Notes under the pieces: model-generated | Database searches by the model: none | Told to the model about the DNA's origin: nothing | Seen by the model: the letters and a program-made list of their open reading frames with translations, nothing else | Position numbers and translations under genes: made by a program | From: Glaucostegus cemiculus | Lineage: Eukaryota | Direction of reading: 5' to 3' | DNA: 64,000 nucleotides | NCBI GenBank assembly: GCA_976551045.1 | Contig: CDPCPM010000010.1 | Location: forward strand, 7,068,001-7,132,000 | Part shown: one piece after another, positions 977 to 62,556 of the stretch | Layout: each line of letters begins with the position of its first letter | How positions within the stretch are numbered: position 1 is the first letter of the stretch

Positions 977-1364
977 TGTCACAATATTGATTGAAGAGCA
1001 AGCTCACAGAGAACCCAAATGCAGCACACTAGTACAAGACTGGAGTCAGGATGCTTCCACAAGACCAAACACAGGCAACACTGGAAGGAAATCTTGCCTC
1101 AGAGATCTGAGTAGTAATCCCAACACAAACTGAATCTTCAAGCAGGAATAGAGAACATAGGACTGCTCTGGAGTAGACCACTCTAAGCAGCTAGAAGCTG
1201 ACGGTTGACCAATCCTCTGGCAAGTAGTGCTAGAGAAACCCAGGTACTTATGCTAGGCCCCTGATGGGGCTCAGGTGTGTGTCATTATGCAATCAGTCCA
1301 GCATGTGCTGTACAACGAGGCATCTAAAGAACCAAATCAAGGGCCAGTACTCAGAATCATGACA
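977..1364 (-). mobile_element. Solo LTR, copy 1 (probably Ty3/Gypsy, Tf1/sushi-like)
   Basis: TGTCA...TGACA termini; perfect 5-bp TSD CATTG at 972-976 and 1365-1369; colinear with copies at 35576, 50708 and 57637. Strand assigned from a TATA-like motif in the opposite-orientation copies. Confidence 0.85.
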
Positions 1365-2771: not shown

Positions 2772-3044
2772 TGTCATGATTCTGAGCACTGGCCCTTGAT
2801 TTGGTTCCTTGGATGCCTCGTTGTACAGCACATGGATTCCATGCTGGACTGATTGCACAATGACACACACCTGAGCCCCATCAGGGGCCTAGTATAAGTA
2901 CCTGGGTTTCTGTAGCACTAGTTGCCAGAGGATTAGTTAACCTCTGGCTCCTAGTTGCTTAGAGTGGTCTACTCCAGAGCTGTCCTGTGTTCTCTACTCC
3001 TGCTTGAAGATTCAGGTTGTGTTGGGATTACTACTCTGATCTCT
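2772..3044 (+). mobile_element. 3'-truncated LTR, copy 2 of the same family
   Basis: Starts TGTCATGATTCTGAG and matches the reverse complement of copy 1 up to ...GATCTCT at 3044, followed by filler DNA. Confidence 0.85.
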
Positions 3045-4195
3045 CCTAAACCTCAGATAACCTCCTAAAGAGTTTAGGAACATTTGGTATAGCTTTATTG
3101 ACAACAGATATTAAGTTAAGCTTAAAGACCTACCAAGAAAATTATGGAAATAAGAGGACCAAAAAAAAATTATGATGTACTCTTATTGTTCCTCTAGATG
3201 AATTGGAATTAAAAGCATTGTAAATGGTGTATAAAGATCATAAAACACTTAAAAGACTGAAAGCTTTTTCTTCATGTCTCCTTAGACAATGACACTCTGT
3301 GGAACCAAAACTCTATGGCACTGAATTTCATGGTCTTTTAATATGGAACCTATTCCAGAACAACTAGGGATGAGAAATAATTGGCAGCTTTGGCACATAT
3401 TCTAAAGAATGATGACAAAAAATAGGTATCATTGATAATTGGATAGCTTAGATTTTTGTTAATTGGTCAATAATGTATTATACTTTTGATTAATTCAATC
3501 ATAAGATGCAAATTTGTAGCAGTTTCATTAAGGTAATTAAGTTTATACCAAAATAATCTTGTACTAAATGGGCACTAATATTCCTGCTGACAGCTGGGTT
3601 CTTTGGTAAATGGGCAATCTGAAATATACTCATGGTTATTTTAAAATTATGTTAATGTAAAATCTATCCTTAATGTGAGACACATTAAAATGCAAAGAAA
3701 CAGATGTTAGCTCTGTGACTAACACATTACATGACATCTCGTAAAGTGTAATAGTGAGATCAAGCACTGTTAATTCAAGGTTTTGATGGTGGAACATGCA
3801 GGAAATTCCTGCATTATCAGTAAGCTCACACAGTAAAATATCTATGGGATGGCTACTTGCGATTCTAGTTTGGACACTTAAGTTTCTACTGACGTGTGTT
3901 CAAATGCACAATTGTATCATTCAGTGGTAGAGAAATTAAATCTTTTTACAACTATCACACTGAGTATTTTAATGAAATGTATTGCAATACATAGGATATA
4001 TAGTCACTTTTAAAGACATTATAGGGGTTAAAATTGAAGTAAATTAGAGAAAAGTCAAATGGCTTTGATAAATTGAAGACATTTCAAAAAGTCAAAGCAT
4101 GGTTAAATCCTAAACTTTGGTCACGGATAAAGCATTTGGGAAGCCTTAATGCTGAGCAGGTTATATGATTTCTACCTTATAGGCTTATCCAGTTT

Positions 4196-25097: not shown

Positions 25098-26314
25098 GCT
25101 AATCAGGAAGTTGAGCGCTCTGGGCATTAACACCCCTCTCTGCAACTGGATTTTCTAACTTGCAGGCCGCAGTCAGTGAAAATTGGTGAAAACACCTCAA
25201 GCACCATCACATTGAGCACTGGCTCCCCTCAGGGTTGTGTGCTCAGTCTGCTCCTGTTCACCTTGTTGACTCACAACTGTGAGGCCAGATCCAGCTCCAA
25301 CCGCATTGTCAAATTCGCCGATGACACGACAGTGGTGGGTCTTGTCACGAATGACGATGAGTCGGACTACAGAGAGGAGGTGAAACAACTAGCCGTGTGG
25401 TGCTATGACAACAACCCCTCCTTGAATGTGGATAAAACCAAGGAGATGATAGTGGATTTTAGGAGGGGTCACCGTGTGCACGCCCCGCTGACCATCAACG
25501 GGTCTGCTGTGGAACAAGTACGCAGCACCAAGTTCCTGGGGGTGCACATCACCGATGACCTGACCTGGTCCACTAACATTACAGCCCTCACGAAGAAAGC
25601 TCAGAAATGCCTCTACTTTCTGCGGAGACTGAGGAAAGCGTACTCCCATCCCTCCGTCATGAAAACCTTCTATAGGGGGACCATTGAGAGCATCCTAACC
25701 CAATGTATCACTGCTTGGTTTGGAAGCTGCTCAGCTGCTGGGCGTAAGTCCCTCCAGAAGATAGTTAGGGCTGCGGAGTGGATCATAGGTGTCTCGCTTC
25801 CATCCCTCGCAGACATATACAAAGACCGTTGTGTGAGGAAGACCAAAAGCATAATGGCCGACCCTTCTCACCCCTCCCACCACCTCTTCACAATTTTGCC
25901 ATCAGGGAGGAGGCTTAAATGTATCAGGGCAAGAACGACCAGGCTGAACAATGGCTTCTTTCCGCAAGCCATCAGAACTGCAAACTCTCTCATCCCTCCA
26001 TCTTCCTTTGTTAACACTAAGAGATGCTAGGTGCACAGAAATGCACCAGCACTTTAAATGCCCAACACCAGCCCGTTCACTTTAATAACTATTTATTTAT
26101 TTACTGCCCATTTTTTATTTAATCTGCATATTAATTTAATTTTAACTTACGTAGTTCTTAATGTTTACTGTTTTTTAATGTTTATTCTGTTAAGTGTGTC
26201 TGTGTGTCTCTGTTGGTTGTTATTTAATGGGACGAGCACCTGAGGAGGACGGTATCTCGCTCCTATGCATACTATGTATGTATATGGTTGTGACAATAAA
26301 ACTGATTCTGATTC
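25098..26314 (+). mobile_element. 5'-truncated Rex1/Babar-like LINE inserted into an old CR1 (CR1 debris ~24960-25097 and 26315-27020)
   Basis: RT ORF, AATAAA followed by an (ATTCTG)n tail, and TSD TGGCA at 25093-25097 and 26315-26319. Confidence 0.88.
25176..26030 (+). pseudogene. Reverse transcriptase C-terminal fragment (284 aa open frame) of the Rex1/Babar-like LINE
   Basis: GSPQGCVLS.LLF, KFADDTTVVGL, LNVDKTKEMIVDFRR, KFLGVHI, LYFLRRL and FFPQAIR motifs; the N-terminal RT and endonuclease are missing. Confidence 0.9.
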
Positions 26315-35040: not shown

Positions 35041-35411
35041 CTTTTGTGCATCCCAGATTGTCATTGCTTCTCCGTTTGTAACTGTGTGTTCATTTAGCAA
35101 GCAGTGGAGGTCACTCCCTGGACATCTCACTCTCTTCAGTTACAGAAAATAAGATCATGTAGCAGGATCTTGCCTTGGGGAGAAATGTTTCAATGTATTT
35201 TTTTCCTGAAGATTAAGTTGATTCATAAATGCATCCCAGCAAGTTGTCTAGTATAGTGCATGTTTTGAATAGCAGGAAATAATTAATAAATTGTTGGAAT
35301 TTAAGAGCAAGAAGGGTAATCATAAGCAAGTCACATGTTCTATAGGTATTGTCAAATCATTTACCACAGAATGTCATTAAAACTTTCCTTAGAGAATCTT
35401 TTGGTCGCCTC

Positions 35412-35570
35412 TGTCATGATTCTGAGTACTGGCCCTTGATTTGGTTCCTTAGATGCCTCGTTGTACAGCACATGGATTCCATGCTGGACTGATTGCACAA
35501 TGACACACACCTGAGCCCCAACAGGGGCCTAGTATAAGTATCTGGGTTTCTGTAGCATTAGTGGCCAGAG
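35412..35570 (+). mobile_element. Partial LTR (putative U3 plus start of R), left arm of the fold-back
   Basis: TGTCATGATTCTGAG...AGTATAAGTA...GTGGCCAGAG; inverted repeat of 35824-35982. Confidence 0.9.
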
Positions 35571-35575
35571 TATTC

Positions 35576-35982
35576 TGTCACAATGCTGATTGAAGAGCAA
35601 GCTCACAGAGAACCCAAATGCGGCACACAGGTACAAGACTGGAGTCAGGATACTTCCTCGGGACCGGACACAGGCAACACTGGAAGGAATCTTGCCTCTG
35701 AGATCTGAGTAGTAATCCCAACACAAACTGAATCTTCAAGCAGGACTAGAGAATGCAGGACTGCTCTAAAGTAGACCACTCTAAGCAGCTAGGAGCCAAA
35801 GTAAACCCAAAGGTTGACCAATCCTCTGGCAACGCGTGCTAGAGAAACCCAGGTACTTATGCTAGGCCCCTGATGGGGCTCGGGTGTGTGTCATTGTGCA
35901 ATTAGTCCAGCATGGAATCCATGTGCTGTACAACGAGGCATCCAAGGAACCAAATCAAGGGCCAGTACTCAGAATCATGACA
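35576..35982 (-). mobile_element. Complete LTR, copy 3
   Basis: TGTCACAAT...ATCATGACA, colinear with 977-1364 and 50708-51105; no TSD of its own (TATTC vs ACCAC). Confidence 0.9.
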
Positions 35983-38660
35983 ACCACTTCCAACATCACA
36001 TTACTTAGTTCAATTTTGTTTTGGAATTATCCTTTGGAATGTCTTGGGGAAAAATCACTTCATCAAAGGCACTAATAAAAGACAAATTGGCTAGGGTATT
36101 TGGAGGAGAATACCCTTGTGTACCTCAGTGAGAAATAGTGTGTTCACATTTTCATTAGGGTGCAATGAAACTATCATCTACCGTAGTCACTAGGGTTGCA
36201 TGTTTGCTTTAATAGTATGGGCTAGCTTTAAGTGATGCTAGCCTCTCTTTGCCATTATCACTAATTAGTAGGAAGCAAGTAGTCATCATCCTGTCACCCT
36301 GACTCCATGGGAAGCAATGGGGGTGGTGGTGAATTAATTACCTTTCTGGGGACTGTCAAATCTAGCCCCCCCCCACACGCAAGAGCCTGTAAACATATCA
36401 TTTTATCATTGTTGCCTCACAAATAATAACGTTTGATTCTTCTCTCAAGTTAGTCAGTTTTCTTTGATAGAAAAAAAAATCTTTGTCTCATCATGTTTAC
36501 TTTTATTGAAAGGCAGCAACAAAAGGTAATTCCAGTTATTAGAAAGGTTAGCAGAAGCTGGAGTTCCTTTGGAAAACAAAATACTTCAAAATTAAGATTT
36601 AAGATCAAGTTGATTGACAAATTCATTCTGTCAAATTGTTCTGTATGTTGAAGGATCTGGATAGCAGGAGATAATTAATATTTTAGAAACAAATAGCAAG
36701 AAGGTAGTCATGAAGAACTCAACTGGCAAGAATGCATTAAAGAGTTGAATGCTTTACCTTAGAGTGTTATTGAAATGGACAGTGTAAAGAAGCTCAAAAT
36801 ATAATTGTATGAATTGCTGGGGGGGGGCATAAAAAATGGAAAAAATATAGTCGGAGGGCATGATTTGATATAAAAGATTCCTACATTCTTGAAATATGTA
36901 TTGCAAGTTAGTAAATTGTATGTATACAAGTTTTAATAACTCCAGTACATGAAACTTACAGTTTATATATTGGTATAATTTGTAGGATAATTCTGAATTG
37001 ATAACTAAAGTCTAGAATTATTCATAAACTGTTTTCAGTAGTGGTTTGATTGACAGCCATTCCATGAGTACTTGATTTTTTTGCTTTATATATCATCAAC
37101 AACCTATGAAGACAATACTGGATTCAAAATTTTCAAAGCTTAATCTTTATGTGGAACGAGTAGGGTGTTTGGCACTAAATACTTTGGAACAAGATGCATT
37201 TAGCAATAGCCGGCTAGCTTGTCAGGGCTTGGAACAATTTGGATTTGAATAGAAACTCTTCTCTAAGTTACATTACAGCAAACAAGCTGCTGTTTTTCTT
37301 TTTATACCTTGATATATGCCAAGAAACATATTTCTGCATTAAATTACAAGTAGCAGGAAGTGATTCAAAGGATAAAGAAAAAAAATATTTTGGCTTAGAT
37401 GACAGATATAAACAGCTCAGGTTCTCATCTCATCGCATGTGGGGTTAGTAATAATTACCGACATAACCATTATACTCATTGATCCATAATTTGAGTAGGT
37501 TAATATCAACTGGAGGTGCATAGTTGTCTTGAAAATGCTCACATCAGTGCTGCTTATATATAAATACTGTTCCTGTGCTTGAAATTCATGATAATCCTCA
37601 CACACGTATTCATGCATATAATACATATAATTTTTATCAATACATTTTCTTTCATCTCCGTAATGCAAACCCACCAAGCTGGACCCTTAACACCACATAA
37701 CACAATCTTATTCTTGAAAGATGCAATACAGTGAATTATTCTTGATCCTGCATTGAGTAAGGACACTATAGTCAGGGATTCATGACAGGACAATAGGTTT
37801 TTCTTATAAATGTTACCAAAAGGTAATTCTAGGGTACATTCTGGAAAAGTCAACATGAGTGATTGTAACCTTATTCACCTTGCCAAGCAGGCAGGCAGTT
37901 AAAATCATACCTTCACCCTCCACCCACAGACTGTACATCCTGCAGGTGATTATACACCAAGCAATCATACAAGTACAAAAAAAACAATGAAGTGATTTTC
38001 TTGGATTTCAGTACCTGGAAGATGGGAAACCCAAACAGACTTATTCCTGAACACACTCTGTACACCAGTTGTACAATCCATTAAACTTCAAGCACAAACT
38101 AATACACAAAAATGTTCTTGATTTTGGGAATCAAAATGGATTTTTGGTACAATATTGACCAAATATTTGTATTTTTGAAGCTTTTATTTATTTTCTGGGG
38201 TTACAATATAAAATTTCACACATTAAAAAGTCAGAAAATATCAGACTGTTAAACCACTGTAACCTGTGCAGCACACAGATTAAATTTTATTACATTACTC
38301 AACTAATTTCCCGTAAATGCAGCTAAAATGATAAATGCCATACTAAATTGATCTAGTTAAGACTAATGTTCTGCGCAACTATCAAAAGGAAGACTCTGTT
38401 TGTCTTTCTTTACTAATTTAAGAAAAACAAGTAATTATAAAACTCTGTTTAGTCATATACTTAAATATGCAATAGGATGTTCTGACTAACAGCATTAGTC
38501 AGATGCAGTGGATTCATTGCTGCCACAAGTTCACTGCTACATTTCCAACTTTCCTATTTTGAGACTAATGGTCTATACATTTAAGTACTAGTTTTTCTTT
38601 AATGCAAAGTACCCGAAAAAAAGTAGCACATTCATTATTTCTGCAGAAGGAAGTGAATAC

Positions 38661-50604: not shown

Positions 50605-51410
50605 AAATTCTAACCTGAGTTCACATTCCACTTGGGAGACTTAAGCCCAATGATTTAGGCTGATGCTTCAGATCAGTACTGAAGGAATGCAGTGCTATCA
50701 GAGTGACTGTCACCATGTTGATTGAAGAGCAAGCTCACAGAGAACCCAAATGCAGCACACAGGTACAAGACTGAAGTCAGGAGACTTCCTCAGGACCAAA
50801 CACAGGCAGCAACTGGAAGGAAGTCTTGCCTCAGAAATCAGAGTAGTAATCCCAACACAAACTGAATCTTCAAGCAGGAATAGAGAACACAGGACTGCTC
50901 TGGAGTAGACCACTCTAAGCAGCTAGGAGCCAACAGTTGACCAATCCTCTGGCAACTAGTGCTAGCGAACCCCAGGTACTTATGCTAGGCCCCTGATGGG
51001 GCTCAGGTGGGTGTCATTGTGCAATCAGTCCAGCATGGAATCCATGTGCTGTACAACGAGGCATCTAAGGAACCAAATCAAGGGCCAGTACTCAAAATCA
51101 TGACAGTGACATCCTTTAAAGGACATGAATGAGGAGTCCCATCTGTTCTCAAGTGGTGATAAAAGATCCCACAACATGAACTCAAGAGTAATGGAGTTCT
51201 TCCACATTGCCCAACTAATCTTAACCTGAGCAAACTGCTAGAGGCAGATTCTCTGGCCACTATCATATTGATGTTGTGAGATCTTACTGCACACGTTAGT
51301 TGTGTTATTTCCTACTTTGCTACAGACCACAAAATGTTGACAGTAAAGCACATTGGTTGTACCAATTGTGAAGCACCTACTGCATATAAATGGAAATCTC
51401 TTTTCTACTG
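50605..51410 (+). mobile_element. Old Deu-domain SINE (SacSINE1/AmnSINE1-like) split by an LTR
   Basis: GAGACTT.AGC...TAGGCTGA...CAGTACTGA.GGA.TGC before the LTR; AAAAGATCCCA...GGAGTTCT...CAGATT.TCTGG.CA.TATCA.ATTG...TATAAATG after it. Confidence 0.6.
50708..51105 (-). mobile_element. Solo LTR, copy 4
   Basis: TGTCA...TGACA; perfect TSD GTGAC at 50703-50707 and 51106-51110. Confidence 0.9.
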
Positions 51411-52396
51411 CTACTTCTTCATATTAAGAGATATTTTCTAACTTTGCTTCTGAGGGTCCTGAATTATGGCTTCAAGATTATTTCCCTGTCCTAGATACGT
51501 CCACCAGTGAAAAAGGTAAAATAAATATTTCAAACATGAAAATAAAACAGGGACCCATTTAAAGGAAGACCCATGTCTTGGACACCCTGGCAGTGCTCAG
51601 AGAGGATTGATAGCCACTCCCTTCGGTTAAGACCTGCACCAACGTTTCAGCCCCGGGTAATTCGGGAACTATGCAGTTAAAAATAGCAATCATCTGTTTT
51701 TGGTCATTTTCTTCACTGCACAAATCTCCAGGGACCTCTAAGGTCCCTGATTAAATTTGTGAACGTTCTTTAAGCATGCAAAAATTGCCTAATCGGGTCC
51801 TGAAATCAGGCTTTTAATAAAATTCACCCATGCTGTGTGCAAATTGTTGCAATGCACAAGAAAGCTTCCTGGCCATGATGTTTGCAGTTTTGCAGTAGGA
51901 CTCTCACTTTATCTGTCCACTATCAAGTTGGAACGATTTCCTCTCATTAGGCTCTAATCTTTTATGGTTTTATATCTGATTCACATTGTTCATAGTTATT
52001 GAAATTCATAAAGAGAGTTCGTACTTCAATCAATAAATCTTTGAAACTGGGCGGGATGAAACTTCAACATCTTTGGCTCGTCCCTGAACTTTATCCAACA
52101 GTTCCTTTTAATTGAGAGAGCAATGATAAACACAAGCTAAAATTCTGCAATCACAAGAATTGCCTGGTAGGATACAAGATCGATTTGTCACCAGAATTAA
52201 CGTGCCAAATAGGAACAAATAGTAATTTCAGAATGCTATTGTGAAAAATTAAAACCCTTCATTTTTATTTTATAATACTTCAAACTCACAAATATGTACT
52301 TATAGCTGTTCTGCAATGCAAATAAGTTTAAGAATTATGTGTTGAATACAGAACTTACATTGAATGCCACAGATTGTAAGAGAAGTTATTAGGAAG

Positions 52397-53099
52397 ACAT
52401 TACGGCCCTCACAAAGAAAGCCCAGAAACGCCTCTACTTCTTGCGGAGACTGAGGAAAGCGAACTCTCATCCCTCAGTTATGAAAACTTCCTATAGAGGG
52501 ACCATTGAGAGCATCTTAACCCAATGTCTCACTGTCTGGTTTGGAAGCTGCTCAGCTGCTGGACGGAAGTCCCTCCAGAGGATAGTTAGGGCTGCGGAGA
52601 GGATCATAGGTGTCTCTCTTCCATCCATCGTTGACATATACAAGGACCGTTGTTTTAGGAGGACCAAAAATATAATGGCGGATCCTTCTCACCCCTCCCA
52701 TCATCTCTTTACAATTTTGCCATCTGGAAGGAGGCTCAAATGTATCAGGGCGAGAACGACCAGGCTGAGCAATAGCTTCTTTCCACAAGCTATCAGAACT
52801 GTGAACTCTCTCATTCCTCCATCTTCCTTGTTAACACTAAGGGATGCTAGGTGCACAGAAATGCACCAGCACTTTAAATGCCCGACACCAGCCCGTTCAC
52901 TTTAAAACTATTTATTTAACCTGCCGTATTTAACTTAAACTTCCGTAGTTTTAATGGTTTTTTTGTTAAGTGTGTCTGTGTGTCTCTGCTGTTTGTTATT
53001 TAATGGGACGAGCACCTGAGGAGGACGGTATCTTGCTCCTATGCATACTATGTCTGTATGTGGTTCTGATAATAAAACTGATTCTGATTCTGATTCTGA
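52397..53099 (+). mobile_element. 5'-truncated Rex1/Babar-like LINE (same family as 25098-26314)
   Basis: ORF 52441-52905 is nearly the same peptide as the C-terminal half of 25176-26030; (ATTCTG)n tail. Confidence 0.9.
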
Positions 53100-54017
53100 C
53101 AAACATTTAAATAGAGCATAAGCCACAGAACCAGCCAGCAGGAAGTTCAAATTAATTTTAGCAATATGCATCCTTTATAACTGTTGATTTATTTTACTCT
53201 TTGAATGTTTTGCGAGCCTGCTTCTGAATGCAGGTTGAGGAGAGCTAGAACCAGGGTAATGTTAGATCCGGAGTGGTGGGGTTTGGGAGAGATGAGGGAA
53301 ATTAGTCAAACTCAATCTTTCCAGTAACTTGAGATATAAAAAAAGTGACCTGGAAAGTTGATCATGAGGTCATAGAAGAACAAGCTTTAGGAATACCAAG
53401 TGTGTGTCATGAAAGCGAGGAGAGGAAGCATTTCTGTTCTGTCCGGGTTTTTTTTGTAAGTATCTGTCTTTCGTTCCTGCAGGCCAAATCTGGTTGTTGC
53501 TTCATTTAATTACATTTAACTCAACAAGTCCAAAACAAATGAACAGACTGTCAGAATTTAAAAAAAAAAGCCTTTCTCAGGGGAAACCAGATGTCACAAG
53601 TACTACAAAAACAGATGTAGTATGGAAAATCAAGAGCACTAACAAAAATGAGCTGTCCAATTGTAAAAGGCAGTTTAGTTTTTAAAATGGAAGCCACAGC
53701 TGTAAACATCACAATTTCATTGCATTTTTCTCTAATGTTTCCTTCTTATTATAAGTATATAATAGAATGATTCCAAGCAAGTTTTATTTAAAAAAGACTC
53801 AACACACTTCTCATCTGCTGACATTTCCTCATTGGATATTTGTAATTATGATCAAGACACACGACACTAGTTTACAATTTTTTTTAACTACCTCTGAAGC
53901 AAATCTTAGTGTCGACTATAACCTTTGCCATATCTTGCTATTTTGGTGGGGCTATAATCTTTACCTTATCTTTCTATAGTGCTTTTTTATTGTTGGTTCT
54001 CTTCTTCACTTCTGGTT

Positions 54018-54843
54018 AGAAACATAGAAAAACTACAGCACAATTCAGGCCCTTCAGCCCACAAAGCTGTGCTGAACATGTCCCTACCCTAGAAAATACT
54101 AGGCTTACCCATAGCCCTCTATTTTACTTAGCTCCATGTACCTATCTAACAGTCTCTTGAAAAACCCTATCGAATCAGAATCAGAATAAGTTTTATTCTC
54201 ACTTCCATATACACATTCAGCATGCATAGGAGCGAAATACGGTACTCCACAGATCAAGGTGCTCGTCACATTAAAAAACAATGATAGACACAAAGGCAGA
54301 AAGACATTAACAACATTGGAACCACAAAATTAAATAGTGACTCGAATAAACAATATTAAAGTGAGCGTACTGAGGCAGCAGACAATGGACATTTAAAGTG
54401 CTGGTGCATTTTTGTACGCCTAGCATCCTTTGGTGTTGGTGGGAGGGATGGAGGGATGAGGGAGTTCATGGTTCTGATAGCTTGTGGGAAGAAGCTATTG
54501 CACAGTCTGGTAGTCCTTACCCGGATGCACTGGAGCCTTCTTCCGGATGATCTGCCTCCACCACTGCTTCTGGCAGCCCATTCCACGCACTCACCACTCT
54601 CTGAGTAAAAAACTTACCCCTGACATCTCCTCTATATCTACTCCCCAGCACCTTAAACCAATGTCCTCTTGTGGCCACCATTTCAGCCCTGGGGAAAAGC
54701 CTCTGATTATCTACCCGATCAACACCTCTCATCACCTTATATACCTCTATCAGGTCCCCCCTCATCCTCCTCCTCTCCAAGGAGAAAAGGCCAAGTTCCC
54801 TCAACCTGCTCTCATAAGGCATGCTCCGCATTCCAGGCAACAT
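54018..54843 (-). mobile_element. CR1 (subfamily A) interrupted by a Rex-like insertion
   Basis: ORF 54517-54843 is a CR1 ORF2 C-terminus; 54018-54176 plus 54550-54843 are colinear with 9900-10345. Confidence 0.9.
54172..54549 (-). mobile_element. Rex1/Babar-like 3' fragment
   Basis: Minus strand SGRRLQCIRVRTTRLCNSFFPQAIRTMNSLIPP; tail appears as (CAGAAT)n on the plus strand. Confidence 0.88.
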
Positions 54844-55915: not shown

Positions 55916-56269
55916 CCTGATAGACGTATATAAGATGATGAGAGGTATTGATCGAGTAGATAGTCAGAGGCTTTTCCCCAGGGCTAAAATGGTGGCTACC
56001 AAAGGACATAGGTTTAAGGTGCTGGGGAGTAGATATAGAGATGTCAGGGGTAAGATTTTTACTCAGAGAGTGGTGAGTGCGTGGAATAGGCTGCCGGAAA
56101 GGTTTGTAGAGGCGGATTTGATAGGGTCTTTCAAGAGACTGTTGGATAGGTACATGGAGCAAAATAAGATAGAGGGCTATGGGCAAGCCTAGTACTTTCT
56201 AGTGTAGGGACATGTTCAGCACAGCTTTGTGGGCCGAAGGGCCTGAATTGTGCTGTAGATGTTCTATGT
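55916..56269 (+). mobile_element. 5'-truncated CR1 (subfamily A)
   Basis: ORF 55935-56192 MMRGIDRVDSQRLFPRA...FTQRVVSAWN.LP. Confidence 0.9.
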
Positions 56270-56455
56270 AACATGTCAGAAACTAAATGGTGAACTAAAA
56301 GGTAAACATAAAGCTACACCACAATTGTAGATACATAGAATCCAACACAAAAATCTTCTGTATAGAAAATAGGGGGCAAAACCATGGAATAATTTAACAA
56401 ATCACTGGATGCAGTGATGAAAGAAACTGCAAAGCTTTACTAAATTGGTGAGCTT

Positions 56456-57636: not shown

Positions 57637-58045
57637 CGTCATGATTCTGAGTACTGGCCCTTGATTTGGTTCCTTAGATGCCTCGTTGTACAGCACATGG
57701 ATTCCATGCTGGACTGATTGCACAATGACACACACCTGAGACCCATCAGGGGCCTAGCATAAGTACCTGGGTTTCTCTAGCACTAGTGGCCAGAGGATTG
57801 GGCAACCTTGAAGATTCAGTTTGGCTCCTAGCTGCTTAGAGTGGTCTACTCCAGAGCAGTCCTGTGTTCTCTAGTCCTGCTTGAAGATTCGGTTTGTGTT
57901 GGGATTACTACTCCGATCTCTGAGGTGAGATTTCCTTCCAGCGTTGCCTGTATCCGGTCCTGAGGAAGTATCCTGACTCCAGTTTTGTGCCGGTGTGCTG
58001 CATTTGGATTCTCTGTGATCTTGCTCTTCAATCAACATTGTGACA
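57637..58045 (+). mobile_element. Solo LTR, copy 5
   Basis: (C)GTCATGATTCTGAG...TTGTGACA; near-TSD ATACA (57632-57636) / ACACA (58046-58050). Confidence 0.88.
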
Positions 58046-58934: not shown

Positions 58935-59472
58935 CTTCTAACAATCTCTTGAACCTGTCCAACGTATCTGCCTCCACCACCACCTCAGGCAGCGCATTCC
59001 ATGCGCCAACCACTCTCTGGGTGAAAAACTTCCCTCTGACATCTCCCCTGAACTTTCCACCCAATATCTTAAAGCCATGCTCTCTCGTCTTGAGCGACTG
59101 TGCTCTGGGAAAGAGGCGCTGGCTGTCAACTCTATCTATTCCTCTCAATATCTTATACACCTCTATCAAGTCTCCTCTCATCCTCCTCCTCTCCAACGAG
59201 TAAAGCCCTAGCACCTTAAGCCTCTCCTCATATTCCATACCCTCTAATCCAGGCATCATCCTGGTAAATTCCCTCTGTACCCTCTCCAACGCCTCCACAT
59301 CCTTCCTATAATGCGGCGACCAGAACTGAACACAATACTCTGTGCGGTCTAACTAGAGTTTTGTAAAGCAGCATCATCACCTCTCTGCTCTTGAACTCAA
59401 TCCCACAATTTATAAAAGCTAACATTCCATAAGCCTTCTTAACTGCCCTATCCACCTGCGAGGCAACTTTGA
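58935..59472 (-). mobile_element. CR1 (subfamily B) ORF2 C-terminal fragment
   Basis: ORFs 59306-59584 (LKVASQVDRAVKKAYGMLAFI...LVRPH) and 58858-59298 (LERVQR.FTRM.PGL...FFTQRVVGAWNALP). Confidence 0.92.
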
Positions 59473-62130: not shown

Positions 62131-62222
62131 GATAAACGGCCTTTCCAGTTTGCATCAGAATTTTGCTTGTAATGTTCACTCAGTTTGCCTTTCTCCACAA
62201 GAACACAAGAAGACAATATCTT

Positions 62223-62556
62223 GTATAAGATATTGAGAGGAATAGATAGAGTTGACAGCCAGCGCCTCTTTCCCAGAGCACAGATGCACAAGACGAGAGG
62301 GCATGGCTTTAAGATATTGGGTGGAAAGTTTAGGGGAGATGTCAGAGGGAAGTTTTTCAGCCCATGGAATGCACTGCCTAGGGTGGTAGTAGAGGCAGAT
62401 ATGTTGGACAGGTTCAAGAGATTGTTAGATAGGCACATGGAAAATGTGGAATAGTAGGATATGTAGGAGGTAAGAGTTAGATTGTGAGATGTTTGAAGGA
62501 TGGCACAACTTGGTGGGCCGAAGGGCCTGTTTTGTGCTGTATTGTTCTATGGTTCT
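62223..62556 (+). mobile_element. 5'-truncated CR1 (subfamily B)
   Basis: ORF 62185-62454; flanked by a 15-bp direct repeat ACAAGAACACAAGAA (62197-62211 and 62560-62574). Confidence 0.9.

What the first reader, a model, noticed from the sequence alone, without database searches (positions are those of the whole stretch)
35412..35982. Fold-back LTR that looks like an integrated snap-back cDNA of a self-priming retrotransposon
Seen: on the minus strand the unit reads full LTR (35982-35576), then GAATA-CTCTGGCCAC, then an inverted copy of the first ~150 bp of the LTR. Both outer ends are therefore the same TGTCATGA terminus, with ~159-bp arms (about 11 mismatches by eye). The turn-around point GTGGCCAGAG (35561-35570) lies ~28 bp after TATAAGTA (35533), where transcription should start, and its complement sits 5 nt after the LTR end, where a primer-binding site belongs. 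Established: Tf1/sushi-group Gypsy elements do not use tRNA; their PBS is complementary to the first ~11 nt of their own transcript. Inference: plus-strand strong-stop DNA (U3-R-U5-PBS) annealed through its PBS to R, copied U3 backwards and was integrated, giving a MITE-like long-TIR element from an LTR. Caveats: the flanks match only 3/5 (GCCTC vs ACCAC). The left arm also shares two variants with copy 2 rather than with the right arm, which would require an intermolecular switch or two separate events.
Basis: partly seen in the sequence, partly recalled or inferred. Interest (0 to 1): 0.8.

Follow-up and report, generated by a model that had tools for sequence, protein, structure and literature searches.

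The report
Two retrotransposon ends fused at primer
A 571-base hairpin-shaped relic in a fish-like genome consists of two ends of a self-priming retrotransposon joined back to back at the element's probable primer site, more likely from two separate copies than from one copy folding back on itself.

Summary
The structure is real: a complete 407-bp LTR (35576-35982, minus), 5 non-LTR bases, then an inverted copy of LTR bases 1-159. The LTR carries the ordered U3 blocks of published Sushi-type LTRs, and the short arm stops at the conserved block about 30 nt after the TATA-like box. So a junction made through primer-binding-site (PBS)/self-primer complementarity is likely (about 0.8), though no full-length element could be seen. 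A single molecule folding back is not favoured. The arms are the most divergent of 15 copy pairs (11/159), differ at 4 of 4 informative sites, and the flanks match 3/5 where three ordinary solo LTRs match 14/15. Each sign is modest. Best reading (0.55): two different copies joined on the chromosome, either by a cDNA's single-stranded PBS tail annealing to a resident LTR (PBS-homology insertion is shown for Tf1, PMC11042837) or by microhomology deletion between inverted neighbours. In-particle snap-back with integration as one unit: 0.22. One copy, no sign of MITE-like mobility. I found no report of this junction in six listing-level searches. Interest 0.4.

The parts
35412..35570 (+). Left arm: LTR positions 1-159 (probable U3 plus first bases of R)
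   Evidence: closest to copy 2 (6/159), furthest from the right arm (11/159)
35533..35540 (+). TATA-like box of the left arm (TATAAGTA)
   Evidence: best match (7/8) to a recalled TATA motif; same place as the AT-rich block in Sushi LTR alignments
35564..35570 (+). GCCAGAG block: probable transcript start / self-primer, and the overlap with the putative PBS
   Evidence: 31 nt after the TATA-like T; matches the TG(C/T)CAG block of Sushi training LTRs; role as self-primer is inferred
35562..35575 (-). Putative primer-binding site directly after the full LTR
   Evidence: 10 of first 12 bases complementary to the R start of 5 of 5 other copies; only 35571-35575 is independent of the arm; not confirmed in a full-length element
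35571..35575 (-). Five non-LTR bases (GAATA) at the junction
   Evidence: 3 of the 4 bases in register with R pair, chance 6.4%; they do not match the right flank (1/5), so the full LTR is not an ordinary solo
35576..35982 (-). Complete 407-bp LTR; its first 163 bases are the right arm
   Evidence: 87-92% identical to three solo LTRs in the window
35820..35830 (-). The full LTR's own R-start block (GCCAGAGGATT)
   Evidence: best duplex partner of the 12-nt tail within this LTR
35854..35861 (-). TATA-like box of the full LTR (CATAAGTA)
35614..35621 (-). GCATTTGG motif 46 nt from the LTR 3' end
   Evidence: in 4 of 4 complete copies, sense strand only; similar motifs near the 3' end of several Sushi training LTRs
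35407..35411 (+). Left 5-bp flank (GCCTC)
35983..35987 (+). Right 5-bp flank (ACCAC), 3/5 match to the left
977..1364 (-). Comparison copy 1: solo LTR, duplication CATTG/CATTG
2772..3044 (+). Comparison copy 2: LTR truncated at about position 273-284; shares two variants with the left arm and one with the right arm
50708..51105 (-). Comparison copy 4: solo LTR, duplication GTGAC/GTGAC
57637..58045 (+). Comparison copy 5: solo LTR, duplication ATACA/ACACA, first base C

Best explanation
A one-off, inert fusion of two different copies of a Sushi-like (self-priming Ty3/Gypsy) LTR, joined on the chromosome through the built-in complementarity between the PBS and the start of R. Shown: the anatomy, the Sushi-like blocks, the unlike arms. 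Inferred: (1) the bases after the full LTR are the PBS; (2) a resident plus-strand LTR was broken or resected beyond its R start; (3) an LTR end carrying the PBS paired with that R start over about 10 of 11 bases and was joined, losing the rest of the resident copy. Two routes fit about equally. Route a (0.25): the partner was cDNA with a single-stranded PBS tail, possibly plus-strand strong-stop DNA, which is exactly the LTR+PBS piece seen; its other end joined by integrase or through the TGACA shared by both LTR ends. Route b (0.30): the partner was the 5' LTR of an integrated element lying inverted nearby, and the DNA between was deleted by microhomology joining.
For: Arm ends at the conserved Sushi block about 30 nt after the TATA-like box and the other side ends 5 nt after an intact LTR end. 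Arms are the most divergent of 15 pairs (11/159; others 6-10) and differ at 4 of 4 informative columns. In 8 simulated settings with identical arms at birth, the left arm shared two or more derived bases with one other copy in 0.4-10% of runs. Two mismatches in a true 5-bp duplication have probability 2-4% at 5-7% divergence, against 9.7% for unrelated 5-mers matching 3/5. Copy 2, the left arm's closest relative, lacks the 11-12 nt insert that the right LTR shares in position with copy 5. About 50% of Tf1 cDNA keeps a single-stranded PBS tail and integrase-free insertions favour PBS-like sites via Rad52 annealing (PMC11042837). Inverted LTR-element tandems occur in Drosophila (PMC5932611). The family is dense here, 5 loci in 64 kb, and copy 2 shows that these LTRs do get truncated.
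Against: No full-length element was seen, so the PBS is inferred from 5 independent bases (3 of 4 in register, chance 6.4%). The duplication test is weak (likelihood ratio about 2.5-4.5; 1.3 at 10% divergence). Column 40 groups copy 2 with the right arm, so homoplasy or recombination exists among these copies; with strong rate variation three informative disagreements arise in up to 24% of simulations; tree tests are split (AU 0.033, KH and SH 0.118). Gene conversion from copy 2 could explain the shared variants (not tested). In the parts of PMC11042837 I read, insertions at resident elements were direct tandems and the word 'invert' does not occur in the main text. No internal element sequence remains beside the unit to support route b.
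Confidence: 0.55

Rival explanations
1. One reading: inside the particle the PBS end of plus-strand strong-stop DNA primed on an R start, copied U3 backwards, and the product was integrated as one unit with two U3 ends. Strictly one molecule 0.07; two templates from a mixed particle, or a hairpin end paired with another cDNA end and collapsed by annealing, 0.15.
For: Both outer ends are exact LTR termini and the piece is exactly LTR+PBS+inverted U3. The R start is the tail's best partner in its own LTR and the 7-bp pairing is in both the best and the centroid RNA fold. Flanks match 3/5 and one ordinary solo already shows 4/5. PBS-tailed cDNA is common in Tf1 (PMC11042837).
Against: Arms are the least alike pair and share no private variant. 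Needs two changes in five flank bases (2-4%). A one-molecule hairpin has one double-stranded end and no evident primer for the second strand (inference). In the single-strand DNA fold the tail did not pair with the R start.
Confidence: 0.22
2. No PBS is involved: two inverted LTRs were brought together by an ordinary deletion, and the five extra bases are a repair insertion or mutated LTR sequence; the match to landmarks is chance.
For: Only 5 bases are non-LTR; they match the LTR continuation 3/5. Copy 2 is also truncated, at an unrelated point. The landmark argument is after the fact, and the family lacks the AATAAA typical of Sushi LTRs.
Against: Needs a break within a few bases of the conserved block (roughly 10 of 400 positions, my estimate), a second break 0-5 nt from the LTR end, and 3 of 4 bases in register (6.4%). 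The 5 bases do not match the right flank (1/5).
Confidence: 0.15
3. The unit is a member of its own mobile long-inverted-repeat family (MITE- or Ginger-like) that arose once from LTR pieces and then spread.
For: 571 bp, 159-163 bp inverted arms, TGT termini, within the 40-270 bp repeat range of Ginger1 (PMC2836005). If born elsewhere from two LTRs, unlike arms are expected.
Against: Single occurrence: the exact junction 14-mer is found once in 64 kb; the other four loci are ordinary LTRs; no CCGG/CCGT or other 4-bp duplication (1/4).
Confidence: 0.05
4. Assembly or long-read fold-back artefact.
For: Fold-back chimeras give inverted duplicates (recalled); reads were not available.
Against: Arms differ at 11 of 159 positions, four of them at sites variable among other copies, and the inversion stops exactly at the LTR terminus on both sides.
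Confidence: 0.03

Closest known systems
Tf1/sushi group chromoviruses (self-priming Ty3/Gypsy); Sushi LTR model of Benachenhou et al. 2013 (PMC3601003)
   Same: TGTYANR-type start, 5-bp duplications on solos, T-rich sense strand (32-34% T in full copies), ordered TGATT / CACCTG / TATA-like / TG(C/T)CAG blocks, a sequence after the LTR complementary to the probable transcript start.
   Different: No AATAAA in any copy; no gag-pol or chromodomain seen; the LTR is followed by inverted U3, not by an internal region.
Integrase-independent, PBS-homology insertion of Tf1 cDNA (Li et al. 2022, PMC11042837)
   Same: Intact LTR end followed by PBS bases that are also target-site homology; no clean duplication; resident copies as targets.
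   Different: Reported products at resident elements are direct tandems or conversions; annealing to the R start of an inverted LTR is not described in the parts read; host is fission yeast.
Inverted tandems / double insertions of LTR elements (McGurk and Barbash 2018, PMC5932611)
   Same: Two copies in opposite orientation, side by side.
   Different: There the junction holds a target-site motif between intact ends; here one copy is cut at its R start and the junction is PBS-like.
Ginger1 DNA transposons and the proposal that their inverted repeats came from two opposite LTRs (Bao et al. 2010, PMC2836005)
   Same: TGT termini, long inverted repeats of similar length, here plainly made of LTR sequence.
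   Different: No transposase gene, no 4-bp CCGG/CCGT duplication, no evidence of movement.

Membership tests
LTR retrotransposon solo-LTR family | TG...CA termini and 4-6 bp target duplication on dispersed copies | tested here: met
   3 of 3 ordinary complete copies have 5-bp duplications (5/5, 5/5, 4/5); one has C at the first base
Tf1/sushi group | Sushi-type LTR sequence blocks in order and orientation | tested here: met
   Pattern found in 6 of 6 copies (3 of 6 in the stricter form), sense strand only, 0 hits in the rest of the window. The pattern was written after seeing both sides, so this is not a blind test
Tf1/sushi group | Terminal motifs TGTYANR ... CNTNACA (Table 3, PMC3601003) | tested here: inconclusive
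   5' fits; 3' reads TGTGACA or GGTGACA (first base differs); the rGmr1 motifs fit as well and the motif cannot orient the LTR
Tf1/sushi group | AATAAA near the LTR 3' end | tested here: not met
   No AATAAA in 6 of 6 copies; AATCAA near the end in 3 of 4 complete copies
Tf1/sushi group | PBS after the 5' LTR complementary to the transcript 5' end | tested here: inconclusive
   10 of 12 bases pair with the R start but most of that is the arm itself; no full-length copy; transcript start not mapped
Tf1/sushi group | Three-duplex 'pretzel' structure of the 5' leader (PMC10085805) | tested here: inconclusive
   Central 7-bp duplex predicted; overall fold not unusual (z -0.33); sequence after the PBS is missing
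Tf1/sushi group | Pol with chromodomain and RT/IN phylogeny in the clade | not testable with these tools
   No internal region in the window: 0 Gypsy domains in the 32 of 106 open frames scanned; no eukaryotic genome collection open
tRNA-primed LTR element | TGG-starting tRNA complement within a few bases of the LTR end | tested here: inconclusive
   First TGG is 9 nt after the LTR end and lies in LTR-derived sequence; no tRNA set was compared; the rule is recalled
   3/5; 2-4% if true duplication, 9.7% if unrelated
Single-molecule snap-back product | Arms identical at birth, each other's closest relatives | tested here: not met
   Highest distance of 15 pairs; no shared private variant; differ at 4 of 4 informative sites; strength modest
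MITE / Ginger non-autonomous element | Several dispersed copies of the whole unit | tested here: not met
   1 of 5 loci in the window; rest of the genome not testable
Ginger1 / Ginger2 | 4-bp duplication (CCGG/CCGT for Ginger1) | tested here: not met
   4-nt flanks match 1/4 (PMC2836005)

The most novel reading that the evidence does not exclude
Self-priming LTR elements carry a structural liability that tRNA-primed elements lack: the 3' end of their plus-strand cDNA is complementary to every LTR's R start. It recurrently primes there, in the particle or on resident LTRs, and leaves short units with two integrase-ready U3 ends and long inverted repeats. This locus would be a fossil of a repeatable route from LTR retrotransposon to long-inverted-repeat element, found at the same junction across sushi-rich vertebrate genomes and absent from tRNA-primed families.
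Probability: 0.15. Interest if true: 0.72.

Novelty: new variant of a known kind. Interest (0 to 1): 0.4.

Why it matters
Self-priming in vertebrate sushi-type elements appears in the papers read as a prediction from sequence and as 'implicated', with the experiments done on yeast Tf1. A genomic junction that sits exactly on the PBS/self-primer pairing would be a footprint of that pairing acting in a vertebrate germ line, and route a would extend PBS-tail insertion from fission yeast to vertebrates. If such junctions recur, they give a concrete path for the proposal that long inverted repeats can be made from LTRs (PMC2836005). If the junction is unique it is a curiosity: one of many rearranged LTR relics, with at most a 160-bp hairpin that could give double-stranded RNA if transcribed. 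The claim is cheap to test on any assembly of this genome.

Tried and rejected
Search for a full-length element: none in the window; no other place has the exact junction 14-mer (two 2-mismatch hits, one being copy 5's own R start). Two pattern scans of the bacterial/archaeal genome collection for stray host DNA: 0 hits each. The one 68-residue frame that crosses the junction was searched for read-through proteins: none near length, 0 of 4 candidates when longer; the profile search gave 11 weak multi-stretch hits (E 6e-8 to 1e-3, 35-43% identity), which I judged spurious from the table and did not open. Rfam: 0 matches in the window. Pfam: 2 of 32 frames hit, both LINE-type; 74 of 106 frames were not scanned. 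Empty-site test: the left flank has a diverged copy at 36533-36776, but similarity stops about 29 nt short of the unit; a tiled search printed nothing and gave no information. Nested insertion of the full LTR into the left copy: rejected, no remainder of the left copy on the right. Full LTR as an ordinary solo: rejected, its own flanks match 1/5. Polypurine tract left on the right flank: 8 of 12 purines, same as two ordinary solos, not unusual. Opposite LTR orientation: rejected, Sushi blocks on one strand only. Folding gave no independent support. The register display was off by one base and was redone. Supplements of PMC6317226 held no vertebrate PBS sequences.

Full report
OBSERVATION. The unit 35412-35982 is as described. 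It has inverted arms of 163 nt at 93% complementarity. On the minus strand it reads a complete 407-bp repeat, five extra bases (GAATA), then the reverse complement of the repeat's first 159 bases. The window holds five loci of this family: three ordinary solos with 5-bp duplications matching 5/5, 5/5 and 4/5, one truncated copy (copy 2), and this unit, whose flanks match 3/5. The outer flanks are not inverted, so the inversion stops exactly at the LTR terminus on both sides. The host looks like a cartilaginous fish: the best named relative of a LINE fragment in the window is from Chiloscyllium punctatum at 63% (most of the 120 listed hits are unnamed). That is context only.

WHAT THE REPEAT IS. 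The termini fit the Sushi and rGmr1 motifs of PMC3601003 (passages) about equally. The paper's supplementary alignment is more telling (parts 27 and 31 of 32 read; searches). Sushi LTRs carry, in order, TGATT, CACCTG, an AT-rich TATA-like block and a TG(C/T)CAG block. Six exact forms of the last block occur 11 times in the file, all in the Sushi section: 10 of the 24 training LTRs plus the model consensus; the other 14 were not checked for looser forms. In two training LTRs I counted by hand (GYPSY107_LTR_DR, GYPSY1_LTR_GA) the G of GCCAG lies 30 nt after the first T of the box; in the window it is 31. A pattern of these blocks is found in 6 of 6 copies (3 of 6 in stricter form), only on the TGTCATGA strand, and nowhere else in the window. 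I wrote the pattern after seeing both sides, so it is not a blind test. Against membership, no copy has AATAAA, and no coding region is present (0 Gypsy domains in 32 of 106 frames scanned). Self-priming as the shared trait of the Tf1/sushi group is stated in PMC6317226, PMC10085805, PMC5341516 and PMC4600332 (passages). The 11-nt primer length of Tf1 is recalled; Butler 2001, Levin 1995 and Atwood-Moore 2006 were not read. That the conserved block is the self-primer is my inference.

THE JUNCTION. The short arm ends at this block, and the long side ends five bases after an intact LTR end. The 12 bases after the LTR pair at 10 positions with the R start of 5 of 5 other copies, and the R start is their best partner in the LTR. 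Most of this is circular, because the arm is LTR sequence. The independent part is 3 of 4 bases in register (chance 6.4%) plus the position of the two breakpoints. Folding adds little: a 7-bp long-range duplex in the RNA fold with an unremarkable overall energy (z -0.33), and none in the DNA fold. I put a PBS-mediated junction at about 0.8. The direct test failed for lack of data: no full-length copy in the window, and nothing. The viral and metagenome contig collections and any eukaryotic assembly stayed unchecked.

ONE MOLECULE OR TWO. A single fold-back makes the arms identical at birth. They are instead the most different of 15 pairs (11/159; the others 6-10), share no private variant, and differ at all four informative columns; one of these (152) may come from the PBS. 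The left arm shares two variants with copy 2, and copy 2 lacks the 11-12 nt insert seen in the right LTR. In simulations with identical arms (8 settings, 6000 runs each) sharing two derived bases with one copy occurred in 0.4-10% and three informative disagreements in 0.5-24%. Tree tests of an arm-arm clade are split: AU 0.033, KH and SH 0.118. Column 40 groups copy 2 with the right arm, so homoplasy or recombination is present. Two mismatches in a true duplication have probability 2-4% at 5-7% divergence (7% at 10%), against 9.7% for unrelated 5-mers. Both signs lean the same way; neither is decisive.

MECHANISM. On the plus strand, the R start of a plus-strand copy and the PBS of a minus-strand copy are direct repeats, so the junction can form on the chromosome. 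PMC11042837 (outline, parts 1-3 of 10, Discussion and passages) reports that about half of Tf1 cDNA keeps a single-stranded PBS tail, that integrase-free insertions have PBS-like downstream flanks, that about 70% go to resident Tf2 copies, and that Rad52 annealing is needed. It describes direct tandems, not inverted joints. In a genome with an LTR every 13 kb or so, each solo offers the tail a 10/11 match at its R start. Route a: a PBS-tailed cDNA, possibly strong-stop DNA, was captured at a broken resident LTR, its far end joined by integrase or through the TGACA common to both LTR ends. Route b: microhomology deletion between an integrated element and an inverted neighbour; inverted LTR-element tandems exist (PMC5932611, passages). 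I cannot separate these and give them 0.25 and 0.30. These weights are judgement, not computation.

KNOWN OR NEW. The parts are known: Sushi-like LTR, PBS-homology joining, inverted LTR pairs, and the idea that opposite LTRs can give long inverted repeats (PMC2836005, passages). I found no report of an LTR-PBS-inverted-U3 junction in searches, judged from listings, with two of those hits read further for this point; subscription journals are largely outside the library. PMC5371812 and PMC2864245 (passages) added background only. It works like PBS-homology joining of Tf1; it is probably a Sushi-group relic but membership is not proven; it is not shown to be a MITE.

VERDICT. Real, well-placed and probably PBS-mediated, but a single old locus whose arms and flanks argue mildly against the snap-back story. 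New variant of a known kind; interest 0.4; 0.72 if the junction recurs genome-wide (probability 0.15).

Noticed in passing
window 35137-35382 and 36533-36776: Two diverged direct copies of an AT-rich 245-bp stretch flank the unit (E 1.5e-10). Similarity stops about 29 nt before the unit. Nature unknown; all frames contain stops.
   Followed up: partly
window 51251-51262: A 12-nt exact match to the junction (CTCTGGCCACTA) lies 145 nt outside copy 4; flanking sequence is unique in the window. Probably chance.
   Followed up: partly
window 57807-57823 and 57880-57896: Copy 5 has a short insert that duplicates LTR sequence 73 nt downstream; the full LTR of the unit has a different 11-nt insert at the same place. 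May mark a subfamily or a template-switch hot spot just after the R start.
   Followed up: partly
window 3040-3080: Copy 2 ends abruptly and is followed by short local repeats (CTCCTAAA twice), resembling a templated repair junction. Both truncated copies in the window share the same two variants.
   Followed up: no
window 977-1364, 35576-35982, 50708-51105, 57637-58045: None of the complete LTRs has AATAAA, unlike the published Sushi model; AATCAA lies near the end in three of four.
   Followed up: partly
window 25131-26030 and 52393-52905: LINE reverse-transcriptase fragments; both also hit Pfam ALKBH8_N. The second is the reading frame of the 89% repeat pair D7.
   Followed up: partly
window 53993-54176 / 56115-56298 and 59019-59159 / 62222-62362: Inverted pairs of LINE-derived fragments 2-3 kb apart, showing that close inverted neighbours of one repeat family are common in this region.
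   Followed up: no
window 1-64000: No Rfam family at gathering threshold and no host-gene domain in the 32 frames scanned; the window appears intergenic or intronic.
   Followed up: partly
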